From positions 1,792,001 to 1,856,000 of the forward strand of contig CAWCMR010000025.1 of NCBI GenBank assembly GCA_963796685.1: 64,000 bases of DNA. The letters run 5' to 3'. Below are positions 61,430-62,786 of the stretch, piece by piece. The DNA comes from an uncultured delta proteobacterium (lineage in GTDB: Bacteria; Myxococcota_A; Polyangia; Fen-1088). A program made the position numbers and the translations under genes. The notes under the pieces were generated by a model. The model was not told where the DNA came from. It made no database searches and was given only the letters and a program-made list of their open reading frames with translations. Positions within the stretch are counted from its first letter, which is position 1. Every line of letters begins with the position of its first letter.

Positions 61430-61575
61430 CCGCCGCCGGCCGAAGGCCCGGATCCTTCAGGCATGAAAAGGTAACAGCCCCTTGTATCTTACGGGGGACT
61501 GGCTCGCTCTCGCTCGCAGTCCCCCGGTCCCCCCTCGCTTCGCCCAGCAAAGCTGGGCTACGCTCGCCCCCAAAG

Positions 61576-61750
61576 GCGAAGGAGCACGACGAGATTCAAC
61601 GGCACGACAGACCGATGCCCCTCAGGTCACAAAGACCGTGGGTGAGCGAGGGTCGTCGTGTCGACTTTCACAAGCAGCCCGAACAGATGAGAGGGCCTCG
61701 AGCCCGCATACTCCGCAAGGCTGGGCATACCAAGAGCAGAAGTCCTTCGC
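61576..61750 (+). ncRNA. Predicted bridge RNA (target- and donor-binding loops); boundaries approximate
   Basis: Internal loops carry GCCCCT/GGGTGAG (matching the target) and ACAGATG/ATAC (matching the donor junction), each around an inner hairpin and closed by an outer stem. Confidence 0.85.
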
Positions 61751-61761
61751 GAAAGGAGCCC

Positions 61762-62712
61762 GTGACACCAACAGCTGACACATTCGTAGGTATCGACGTC
61801 TCCAAGGCCACGCTCGACGTCCATGTCTTGCCGGCCAAAAGAGCCTGGTCCACCCCCAATCAAGACAACACGGTGCGCGCTCTTTGCAAAGAGTTGGCCG
61901 CCCTGAACGTCACCCTCATCGTTCTTGAGGCCACCGGTGGACTCGAACGACGCGTGCTTGCGGCGCTCCTCGCTGCCAACCTGCCCGCTGTCGTCGTCAA
62001 CCCCAGACGCGTTCGCGACTTCGCCAAGGCCAACGGCTGTCTCGCGAAGACCGATGCCCTGGACGCCGCCATGATCGCTCTTTTCGCCGAACGAATACGG
62101 CCACCCGTCCGCCCGCCTGTCGACGCAGAGACCCAGGAGCTTGCCGCCCTTCTCGCCAGGCGCAGGCAGGTGGTCGACATGATCACTGCCGAGAAAAACC
62201 GTCTCAGCGCTGACCCTCCCTCCAAGCGCGTGCAGAGGGCCATCCGCAGGACCATCTCCTACCTCGAAAAGCAGCTCGACGAGGTGGACAACGACATCGA
62301 CACGGCCATCGGCAATTCCTCGGTCTGGAAAGCCAAGGACGACATCATCCAAAGCGTTCCAGGAGCTGGCCCCGTCCTCTCTCGCACCATCCTGTCCCAT
62401 GCCCCTGAGACTGGAACCCTCAACCGCAAGCAGATCGCAGCCCTCATCGGTGTTGCTCCACTCAACCGGGACAGCGGCACCCTGCGCGGCCGCCGCATCA
62501 TCTGGGGCGGCCGCACCGAAGTCCGCAACGTCCTCTACATGGCCACCCTAGCTGCCATACGCTTCAACCCAGTCATCGCCAGATTCCACGCTCGGCTAGT
62601 CGCCGCAGGAAAGCTCAAGAAGGTCGCCATCGTCGCCTGTATGCACAAGCTGCTCACCATCCTCAACGCCATGTTGCGCTCTAACTCGCGCTGGCAAACC
62701 ACGGAGATTTGA
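61762..62712 (+). CDS. IS110 DEDD recombinase/transposase
   Basis: AAAGGAG RBS plus GTG; [22 protein letters not shown]-terminal RDSG serine motif, GGR..VR..LYMA. Confidence 0.95.
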
Positions 62713-62733
62713 CCTTGACTAGGAACACAGATG

Positions 62734-62786
62734 CTCACCCGCCTCGCTGCGCTCGGCGACCTCTCCCCGCTACGCGGGGCGAGGTG
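62734..62786 (+). repeat. REP-like hairpin (IS110 target)
   Basis: CTCACCCGCCTCGCTGCGCTCGGCGACCTCTCCCCGCTACGCGGGGCGAGGTG; its 5' GCCC lies on the other side of the IS. Confidence 0.75.

What the first reader, a model, noticed from the sequence alone, without database searches (positions are those of the whole stretch)
61481..62735. Complete IS110 element with a readable bridge RNA whose guides match its own target and donor
Seen: both ends share a CT core (61481-82, 62734-35). Joining the ends gives the donor ACAGATG-CT-TGTAT; removing the element gives the target ACAGCCC-CT-CACCC. In the upstream non-coding end, a first loop (outer stem CACGAC..GACC/GGTC..GTCGTG, inner hairpin GGTC-ACAAA-GACC) carries GCCCCT (61617-22, identical to left target plus core) and GGGTGAG (61640-46, reverse complement of core plus right target). 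A second loop (outer CAGCC/GGCTG, inner GGGC-CTCGA-GCCC) carries ACAGATG (61683-89, identical to left donor) and ATAC (61708-11, reverse complement of GTAT in right donor). Established: this is the bispecific RNA-guided recombination architecture of IS621-type IS110 elements. Inference: an intact RNA-programmable recombinase from a probable myxobacterium, with its own target specificity and a long (7-nt) right target guide.
Basis: partly seen in the sequence, partly recalled or inferred. Interest (0 to 1): 0.85.

Follow-up and report, generated by a model that had tools for sequence, protein, structure and literature searches.

The report
Intact IS110 element with bridge RNA
This is a complete, recently active copy of an IS110-family jumping gene whose own small "bridge" RNA spells out both the genomic site it inserts into and its own ends; it is a clear new example of an already described RNA-guided recombination system.

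Summary
Window 61483-62735 (1253 bp) is an intact IS110-group insertion sequence. Its genome holds six 100%-identical full copies plus one copy split by a group II intron.

- **Insertion sites:** 15 full-length insertions across three genomes are flanked by RT CACCC in 15 of 15. The left side is GCCCCT in 13 of 15. 121 empty GCCCCTCACCC sites lie mostly in REP-like repeats.
- **Recombinase:** the 316-aa ORF has both IS110 domains and all five IS621 catalytic residues.
- **RNA:** a covariance model of the two-loop RNA hits upstream of the gene in about 80 relatives. 22 of 25 base pairs show compensatory changes.
- **Guide-flank covariation:** the right-target guide predicts the flank 5/5 in 43 of 58 distinct guide pairs, with 0 of 2000 permutations as good.

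Verdict: new member of a known kind. The side finding is that solo left-end scars and nested copies break inside the DNA that encodes the left target guide.

The parts
61477..61482 (+). Left target (GCCC) plus CT core, as recognised by the left target guide
   Evidence: Read directly. GCCCCT flanks 13 of 15 full-length insertions in 3 genomes.
61483..62735 (+). The insertion sequence (1253 bp, counting the right-hand CT core)
   Evidence: Six 100%-identical full copies plus one copy split by an intron in the same genome.
61483..61761 (+). Non-coding left end (279 nt) that encodes the bridge RNA
   Evidence: Long left end and short right end, read directly.
61483..61487 (+). Right donor arm TGTAT
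   Evidence: Read directly. The element start is conserved in relatives.
61485..61490 (+). -10 half (TATCTT) of a promoter that is complete only when right and left ends are joined
   Evidence: Read directly. The hexamer is TATxxx in 55 of 55 relatives, partly forced by the search pattern. No sigma-70-type site was found in the linear form.
61492..61526 (+). 5' hairpin of the left end; a group II intron sits just after it (position 55/56) in two other copies
   Evidence: Fold; intron insertions.
61600..61663 (+). Target-binding loop: outer stem 61600-13/61651-63, inner hairpin 61625-37
   Evidence: 12 of 13 outer-stem pairs and 3 of 4 inner pairs show compensatory changes.
61617..61622 (+). 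Left target guide GCCCCT (same as the top strand of left target plus core)
61640..61646 (+). Right target guide GGGTGAG (reverse complement of CT-CACCC)
61647..61648 (+). Handshake guide of the target loop (CG). C61647 pairs with donor position 7 (G) and not with target position 7 (C).
   Evidence: Read directly. The rule holds in 53 of 54 relatives. The definition is from passages of Hiraizumi et al. 2024.
61677..61726 (+). Donor-binding loop: outer stem GCCC 61677-80/GGGC 61723-26, inner hairpin 61693-61705
   Evidence: 3 of 4 outer pairs and 4 of 4 inner pairs show compensatory changes.
61683..61689 (+). Left donor guide ACAGATG (same as the last 7 nt before the core at the right end)
   Evidence: Read directly. 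The corresponding 7-mer located the right end in relatives.
61708..61719 (+). Discontinuous right donor guide: ATAC 61708-11 and G-CAAG 61715-19 (complement of CT-TG-T..AT), with TCC looped out
   Evidence: Read directly. CAAGG is conserved in relatives. The discontinuous pairing in IS621 is described.
61720..61721 (+). Handshake guide of the donor loop. G61720 pairs with target position 7 (C) and not with donor position 7 (G).
   Evidence: Read directly. The rule holds in 46 of 54 relatives.
61762..62712 (+). Recombinase gene (GTG start, 316 aa, AAGGAG at 61753-58). Catalytic residues D12, E56, D98, D101, S238.
   Evidence: Pfam PF01548 and PF02371. NCBIfam NF033542 at 212.7 bits against a cut-off of 140. 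Aligned to IS621 8wt6 and ISCro4 9t56. Residue roles.
62713..62735 (+). Short right end (23 nt): -35 half TTGACT 62715-20, left donor arm ACAGATG 62727-33, core CT 62734-35
   Evidence: Read directly. The -35 hexamer matches TTGACA at 4 or more of 6 positions in 45 of 55 relatives.
62736..62740 (+). Right target CACCC
   Evidence: 15 of 15 full-length insertions.

Best explanation
Window 61483-62735 is an intact, recently mobile IS110-group insertion sequence that works like IS621.

1. Joining its two ends (circle or tandem form) makes the donor site ACAGATG-CT-TGTAT. It also assembles a sigma-70-type promoter, TTGACT-17 nt-TATCTT, that reads into the left end.
2. The transcript folds into a bridge RNA with two internal loops.
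3. The first loop pairs with the target. [quoted passage not shown]
4. The second loop pairs with the donor. [quoted passage not shown]
5. A tetramer of the 316-aa DEDD-plus-serine recombinase cuts after the CT core and exchanges strands, helped by handshake bases C61647 and G61720. It then resolves the junction.
6. This places the element in the 11-bp site GCCCCTCACCC, which sits in REP-like intergenic repeats.

Shown here: boundaries, copies, targets, RNA structure covariation, guide-flank covariation, conserved catalytic residues and the split promoter. Inferred from IS621: RNA expression, chemistry and order of steps.
For: **Copies and sites**
- Six full copies at 100% identity plus one copy split by an intron are in the same genome. 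Eight protein matches at 99% identity are in G036 and one full plus one partial in G035.
- In 15 full-length insertions the right flank is CACCC in 15 of 15. The left flank is GCCCCT in 13 of 15, the other two being ACCCCT and CCCCCT.
- There are 121 uninterrupted GCCCCTCACCC sites against about 18 expected from composition, many in the same repeat family as the window's flanks.

**Protein**
- PF01548 (E 2.9e-23) and PF02371 (E 1e-16).
- NF033542 'IS110 family RNA-guided transposase' at 212.7 bits, cut-off 140.
- PDB ISCro4 E 2.9e-31 and IS621 E 1.2e-26 over residues 8-308. D12, E56, D98, D101 and S238-G239 align to IS621 D11, E60, D102, D105 and S241-G242.

**RNA**
- Model R1, built from 4 seeds, gave 91 matches in 85 sources. 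In most loci the match lies just upstream of the gene.
- 96.9% of cells are paired and 22 of 25 pairs have changes on both sides. 0 of 500 shuffles reach this, and slid controls pair at 53% or less.

**Guides**
- The right-target guide predicts the 5-nt flank 5/5 in 43 of 58 distinct guide pairs and 4/5 or better in 53 of 58. The observed sum is 268 against a permuted mean of 107, with 0 of 2000 permutations as high.
- For the left target the sum is 234 against 156, again 0 of 2000.
- Pairing extends 4-5 nt plus core on the left and 5 nt plus core on the right.
- The handshake rule holds in 53 of 54 and 46 of 54 relatives.

**Promoter**
- The -35 hexamer matches at 4 or more of 6 positions in 45 of 55 relatives. 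The integrated form has no sigma-70-type site.
Against: - No direct evidence of transcription or recombination. The RNA-library contigs that cover 61555-61706 in two studies may come from DNA carry-over or from relatives.
- Rfam release 15 has no match at gathering score. The only hit is a sub-threshold match to sX15 on the opposite strand.
- The single-sequence fold of the whole left end is only mildly better than shuffles (z -1.95).
- The alignment used for pair counts was fitted to the model, which favours the structure.
- Left-target scoring allowed three registers, applied equally to the permutations. Boundaries in relatives were found with donor motifs, so 8 of 66 (right) and 12 of 66 (left) distinct guide pairs could not be scored.
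- The left donor guide matches 7 nt but not the core (AG against CT).
- The handshake result is conservation rather than covariation, because donor position 7 is almost always G.
Confidence: 0.93

Rival explanations
1. The true element is shorter (61623-62735). On this reading the first 140 nt, which also occur alone elsewhere, belong to a repeated host sequence into which the element inserts.
For: Fragments covering element positions 1 to about 140 occur without the rest of the element: 3-4 in this genome and 12 in G036. They end at an internal GCCCCT followed by CACCC, which looks like a target.
Against: - The 140 nt are 100% identical in all full copies, while the DNA to their left belongs to at least three different repeat families.
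- Empty sites join GCCCCT directly to CACCC without the 140 nt.
- A boundary at 61623 would cut the covarying target-loop stem in half.
- Relatives start at TGTAT at variable distances (26-195 nt) from the loops.
Confidence: 0.02
2. It is a genuine IS110 element, but site choice is made by the protein. On this reading the guide-like matches in the left end are coincidence or leftovers of the ends.
For: Only one lineage and one target are seen in the window's own genome. The target lies in a repeat that could be recognised by shape. The abstract start of a 2026 preprint on ISPpu10 (listing) asks whether a structural layer exists beyond base pairing.
Against: Across relatives with different targets, the loop sequences change together with the flanks. 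The right flank matches 5/5 in 43 of 58, and 0 of 2000 permutations do as well. The signal stops exactly at the loop borders.
Confidence: 0.03
3. The copy is structurally intact but no longer mobile, for example silenced or lacking a host factor. The identical copies would then come from segmental duplication of repeat arrays, not transposition.
For: Several copies sit inside tandem arrays of the target repeat, such as C15 369347-371616. Such arrays can duplicate. No circle junction or polymorphic site was shown.
Against: The seven copies have at least three unrelated left-flank families on four contigs. Each has exact element boundaries and no shared flanking DNA beyond the repeat. Sister genomes carry the element at other sites.
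Confidence: 0.1

Closest known systems
IS621 (Escherichia coli) bridge recombinase and bridge RNA (Durrant et al. 2024, PMC11208160; Hiraizumi et al. 2024, PMC11208158; passages read)
   Same: - Same two protein domains and the same five catalytic residues.
- CT core, long left end and short right end.
- Bridge RNA with a variable first loop for the target and a conserved second loop for the donor.
[quoted passage not shown]
- Discontinuous right donor guide, handshake bases, and a promoter split across the joined ends.
   Different: - The protein is distantly related (phmmer E 1.2e-26).
- The left target guide is 4 nt plus core here, against 9 nt (A50-U58) in IS621.
- The right target guide is 5 nt plus core, against 4 paired nt (G77-G80) in the IS621 structure.
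- About 113 nt with extra hairpins precede the first loop.
- The right donor guide carries a 3-nt insertion relative to its closest relatives.
- The host is an uncultured GC-rich soil bacterium.
ISCro4 transposase (PDB 9t56)
   Same: Best solved-structure match, E 2.9e-31 over residues 8-308, with the same domain order.
   Different: Only the protein was compared. I did not see its RNA or its target.
ISPpu9 / ISPpu10 of Pseudomonas putida (abstract starts seen in the listings)
   Same: IS110-family elements that insert into repeated intergenic (REP-type) sequences present in many copies.
   Different: Different host, target and guides. ISPpu9 is described with an sRNA gene downstream of the transposase, whereas here the RNA is upstream.
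IS1111-group elements with a 3' seekRNA
   Same: Same recombinase family and the same RNA-guided logic.
   Different: Their RNA lies in a long right end. Here the right end is only 23 nt and the RNA is in the left end.

Membership tests
IS110 family, IS110 group (bridge-RNA elements) | Recombinase with a RuvC-like DEDD domain (PF01548) followed by a Tnp domain (PF02371) | tested here: met
   (82.8 and 61.5 bits, both above cut-offs). (NF033542 at 212.7 bits, cut-off 140).
IS110 family, IS110 group (bridge-RNA elements) | Catalytic D, E, D, D and the Tnp-domain serine (IS621 D11, E60, D102, D105, S241) | tested here: met
   D12, E56, D98, D101 and S238 align to them (with an offset of 2 in chain numbering). 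They are invariant in 4 aligned relatives.
IS110 family, IS110 group (bridge-RNA elements) | Long non-coding left end, short right end, and a CT core at both junctions with no other duplication | tested here: met
   Left end 279 nt, right end 23 nt, CT at 61481-82 and 62734-35. Empty sites carry a single CT.
IS110 family, IS110 group (bridge-RNA elements) | Left-end RNA with two internal loops closed by conserved helices | tested here: met
   22 of 25 pairs show compensatory changes and 96.9% of cells are paired. The alignment was fitted to the model.
IS110 family, IS110 group (bridge-RNA elements) | First-loop guides match the left target (bottom strand) and right target (top strand) and covary with them | tested here: met
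   own copies.
IS110 family, IS110 group (bridge-RNA elements) | Second-loop guides match the element's own ends | tested here: met
   ACAGATG equals the last 7 nt before the core, and ATAC...CAAG complements CT-TGTAT. The 7-mer from the loop located the right end in 58 of 66 distinct guide pairs.
IS110 family, IS110 group (bridge-RNA elements) | Handshake bases pair with the non-cognate DNA at position 7 and not with the cognate one | tested here: met
   53 of 54 against 3 of 54 for the target loop, and 46 of 54 against 2 of 54 for the donor loop. There is little variation, so this is conservation rather than covariation.
IS110 family, IS110 group (bridge-RNA elements) | Sigma-70 promoter reconstituted at the joined right end and left end | tested here: met
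   TTGACT-17-TATCTT by direct reading. Conserved offsets in relatives. None in the linear form. This is sequence evidence only.
IS110 family, IS110 group (bridge-RNA elements) | Bridge RNA expressed, bound by the recombinase and required for recombination | not testable with these tools
   The only hint is that contigs from RNA libraries of two studies cover 61555-61706. That does not prove transcription.
Rfam bridge-RNA family | Match at gathering score to a curated model | tested here: inconclusive
   No such match. The only hit is sX15 (RF02234) on the minus strand at 29.4 bits against a gathering score of 55.
IS1111 group (seekRNA in the right end) | Guide RNA encoded downstream of the gene in a long right end | tested here: not met
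   The right end is 23 nt. The RNA model hits upstream of the gene.

The most novel reading that the evidence does not exclude
By definition, the DNA that encodes the left target guide is a copy of the left target plus core. It therefore acts as a built-in pseudo-site for the element's own recombinase.

- Recombination there with the right end leaves solo left-end scars. Some of these regenerate a perfect 11-bp target and are hit again, giving scar-plus-full-copy and tandem-scar arrays.
- Breakpoints cluster in a 10-nt stretch (window equivalent 61614-24). This is seen in 3-4 fragments in this genome and in 12 solos plus 3 nested junctions in G036.
- An unrelated-guide relative (G090) has 2 of 4 copies preceded by a left-end fragment that ends exactly at its own guide-coded core.
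- This would be a general self-targeting liability of bridge-RNA elements and a source of the non-coding repeat units reported next to IS110 genes.
Probability: 0.4. Interest if true: 0.55.

Novelty: new member of a known kind. Interest (0 to 1): 0.35.

Why it matters
Bridge recombinases are being developed as programmable DNA-insertion tools. A natural orthologue with known target, donor, guide lengths and many genomic insertions is a ready test case. Here the left guide is short and the right guide long, and the right-guide extension was engineered into IS621. Biologically it is an ordinary member of a large family. The more useful lead is the clustering of deletion and nesting breakpoints in the guide-coding DNA. 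That bears on how these elements decay, on how tandem non-coding units arise beside them, and on off-target or half-site recombination in engineered systems.

Tried and rejected
- **Rfam scan of 61300-62900 at E up to 10.** No bridge-RNA family was found. The sX15 minus-strand hit was followed up only as a side note.
- **Single-sequence fold of the left end.** It recovers the first loop but not the covarying donor-loop stem, so it was not used for the structure.
- **MAFFT alignment of whole left ends.** It misaligned the shorter left end of G031. The boundary was taken from the TGTAT motif instead.
- **Alternative boundary at 61623.** Rejected; see rival explanations.
- **Mini-element idea.** I asked whether the solo 140-nt units are a separately mobile lineage. 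10 of the 12 G036 solos (and one of the three nested junctions) share a variant at alignment column 121 that the G035 full copy also has. This fits older scars as well as a lineage, so the question stays undecided.
- **G089 (8 copies of a 53% relative).** It showed no fragment ending at its guide-coding position, only one 1-56 fragment.
- **Read laying.** All runs are contigs, so no starts, ends, strand or level can be read.
  - The joints that skip 61468-62734 in DNA run X1 carry other letters between the two sides. They look like other, empty copies of the repeat, not proof of excision.
  - Stretches without RNA-library cover mean nothing.
- **No circle junction or tandem full copies were found.**
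- **IS621's own RNA could not be compared with model R1.** I had no tool-derived IS621 DNA and did not type it from memory.
- **Supplementary files of the papers were not seen.** The guide tables in Durrant et al. may already list this element or close relatives.
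Full report
**What is there**

- The left flank is ACAGCCC-CT (core 61481-82) and the element starts TGTAT at 61483.
- The element ends ACAGATG-CT (62727-35) and the right flank is CACCC (62736-40).
- The only long frame consistent with a domain start is GTG 61762 to the stop at 62712 (316 aa), preceded by AAGGAG at 61753-58.
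- It carries PF01548 (E 2.9e-23) and PF02371 (E 1e-16).
- It passes the NCBIfam equivalog NF033542 'IS110 family RNA-guided transposase' at 212.7 bits against a cut-off of 140.
- The left end is 279 nt and non-coding. The right end is 23 nt.

**Boundaries and target**

A search of the window's own genome (7.3 Mb, 26 contigs) found six full copies at 100% identity. A seventh copy lacks nothing but is split after position 55 by a 2075-bp insert.
- All seven have CACCC on the right. Six have GCCCCT on the left and one has ACCCCT.
- The DNA further left belongs to at least three different repeat families.
- Sister genomes G036 (7 sites with both ends) and G035 (1 site) carry 99%-identical copies at other sites with the same flanks.
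- Over all 15 full-length insertions the right flank is CACCC in 15 of 15 and the left is GCCCCT in 13 of 15.
- The uninterrupted 11-mer GCCCCTCACCC occurs 121 times in the genome, against about 18 expected from base composition.
- Most occurrences lie inside REP-like intergenic repeats of the same families as the flanks, some in tandem arrays around a copy.
- These empty sites fix the boundaries and show a single CT core per site.

**The RNA**

Rfam has no match at gathering score. I aligned the window's left end with three relatives (68, 65 and 55% protein identity). I wrote the two-loop structure by hand and built model R1.
- Over 85 sources (window plus 84 loci) R1 gave 91 matches. In most loci the match ends a few to some tens of bases before the gene.
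- On the resulting alignment (69 distinct rows) 96.9% of cells pair. 22 of 25 pairs have changes on both sides, 0 of 500 shuffles reach the observed values, and sliding the partners drops pairing to 53% or less.
- The alignment was fitted to the model, which favours the structure, but the slid controls share that bias.
The donor-loop outer stem is not: the covarying helix is GCCC 61677-80 with GGGC 61723-26, not CAGCC/GGCTG.

**Guides**

In the window:
- GCCCCT (61617-22) equals left target plus core.
- GGGTGAG (61640-46) is the reverse complement of CT-CACCC.
- ACAGATG (61683-89) equals the left donor arm.
- ATAC (61708-11) together with G-CAAG (61715-19) complements CT-TGTAT, with TCC looped out.

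The last point fits the discontinuous pairing described for IS621 (passages).

The three seed relatives already show coupled changes. CACCC becomes CTCCC together with GGGTG becoming GGGAG, and the left flanks change to CGGC-CT and AACC-CT together with the loop.

For all relatives I located the right end with the donor-loop 7-mer and the left end with the TGTAT motif. I then compared target-loop letters with the flanks, counting each distinct guide pair once (66 pairs; 58 scorable on the right, 54 on the left).
- The right guide predicts the flank 5/5 in 43, 4/5 in 10, 3/5 in 3 and 2/5 in 2.
- The sum is 268 against a permuted mean of 107 (maximum 137), with 0 of 2000 as high.
- The left sum is 234 against 156 (maximum 180), with 0 of 2000 as high.
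- Match rates fall to background beyond 5 nt on the right and beyond 4-5 nt on the left. This clade therefore reads about 11-12 bp.
- The 7-nt right guide is a clade feature, not a peculiarity of this copy.

Handshake bases follow the published rule.
- The base after the right target guide pairs with donor position 7 in 53 of 54 relatives and with target position 7 in 3 of 54.
- The base after CAAG pairs with target position 7 in 46 of 54 and with donor position 7 in 2 of 54 (definition).
- These positions hardly vary, so this is conservation.

**Protein**

phmmer against PDB sequences finds only the ISCro4 transposase (9t56, E 2.9e-31) and the IS621 transposase (8wt6, E 1.2e-26), both over residues 8-308. 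In the printed alignment D12, E56, D98, D101 and S238-G239 stand opposite IS621 D11, E60, D102, D105 and S241-G242. The paper shows these to be essential.

**Promoter**

With the ends joined, TTGACT (62715-20) lies 17 nt from TATCTT (61485-90).
- The linear region has no sigma-70-type site by the scan.
- At the same offsets, 45 of 55 relatives have 4 or more of 6 matches to TTGACA (40 have 5 or more).
- All 55 have TAT at the start of the second hexamer, partly forced by my search pattern.
- This is the split promoter described for IS621 (passages).

**Expression**

Contigs of a DNA run cover the whole element. Contigs from RNA libraries of two studies cover 61555-61706 and parts of the gene at 95% identity or better. 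Contigs cannot show strand, ends or level, and DNA may contaminate such libraries. This is only a weak hint.

**How it most likely works**

As in IS621, excision or copy-out joins the ends. That switches on the bridge RNA, and probably the recombinase mRNA on the same transcript. The RNA holds the target in its first loop and the donor junction in its second. The serine cuts after CT, top strands are exchanged with help from the handshake bases, and the junction is resolved.

Whether excision is cut-out or copy-out is debated in recent preprints (abstracts), and nothing here decides it. Everything after 'RNA folds' is inferred from IS621.

**Side findings**

1. Left-end fragments without the rest of the element end inside the 10 nt that encode the left target guide.
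   - There are 3-4 such fragments in this genome and 12 in G036, plus 3 junctions where such a fragment is followed directly by a full copy or another fragment.
   - Among the 15 clean solos the junction classes are: ATGCCCCT|CACCC (2), which restores a perfect target; ATGCCC|ACCC (4); ATGCT|CACCCC (2); and 7 others.
   - The first class fits crossing-over at the guide-coded CT. The next two fit crossing-over at GATG-CC, which resembles the left donor arm GATG-CT, with the core resolved either way.
   - In G090, a 55% relative with different guides, 2 of 4 copies are preceded by a 60-nt left-end fragment ending exactly at its own guide-coded CCGCCT.
   - G089 shows nothing of the kind.
   - Hu et al. 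(preprint, section 8 read) report tandem non-coding units beside IS110 genes and half-site matches. In the section I read they do not name the guide-coding DNA as the site. My search found no paper that does. Supplements were not available.
2. The 2075-bp insert is a group II intron.
   - It matches RF02001 at 79.7 bits and RF00029 at 46.6 bits, and its ORF has RVT_1 and GIIM.
   - There are 12 near-full-length matches in the genome. In two of them it sits antisense in the IS left end just after the first hairpin.
3. Rfam sX15 matched the minus strand of the bridge RNA.
   - Model R1 hits the published sX15/asX7 locus of plasmid pXCV183 on the minus strand at 46.6 bits, E 1.2e-12.
   - The family therefore looks like the antisense of an IS110 bridge RNA remnant.

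**Verdict**

The observation and the interpretation both stand, with small corrections. It is a well-documented new member of a known kind. Interest is modest, and the guide-coding breakpoint cluster is the part worth following.

Noticed in passing
G000 C25:1109421-1109562, C8:212939-213081, C25:234099-234236 (window equivalent 61483 to about 61624); G036 loci L138-L151; G090 loci L169, L171: Solo left-end fragments and 'fragment plus full copy' junctions break within the 10 nt that encode the left target guide. Some restore a perfect 11-bp target. An independent relative with other guides (G090) shows the same at its own guide-coded core in 2 of 4 copies.
   Followed up: partly
G000 C11:75849-77923 (locus L125 1350-3424) and C25:1543397-1545471: A 2075-bp group II intron (Rfam RF02001, RF00029; RVT_1 plus GIIM ORF) gives 12 near-full-length matches in the genome. 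In two of them it is inserted antisense after position 55 of the IS left end, separating the promoter half from the bridge-RNA loops.
   Followed up: partly
window 61590-61741 minus strand; L126 1392-1527 minus strand (pXCV183 116391-116526): Rfam sX15 (RF02234) matches the reverse strand of the bridge RNA below threshold. My bridge-RNA model hits the original sX15/asX7 locus on the asX7 strand (46.6 bits). The Rfam family may be the antisense of an IS110 bridge RNA. No IS110 gene is annotated next to it there.
   Followed up: partly
window 61430-61482 and 62736-62800; genome-wide, e.g. C15:369347-371616 and C11:98683-101703: The 11-bp target lies in several families of REP-like intergenic repeats with hairpins (...ctctccccgc..gcggggcgagg...), some in tandem arrays with a period of about 180-260 bp. 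There are 121 perfect sites.
   Followed up: partly
L086-L091 (Dehalococcoidia record, 5 loci): In this relative the bridge-RNA model hits about 1.2 kb upstream of the gene on the same strand. A weaker hit lies on the opposite strand just upstream, so the element layout differs or two elements are nested.
   Followed up: no
window 61491-61569: In two soil RNA-library runs of one study, short contigs over the first hairpins of the left end have much higher word depth than those over the loops. Contig depth is no measure of expression, so this is only a lead.
   Followed up: no
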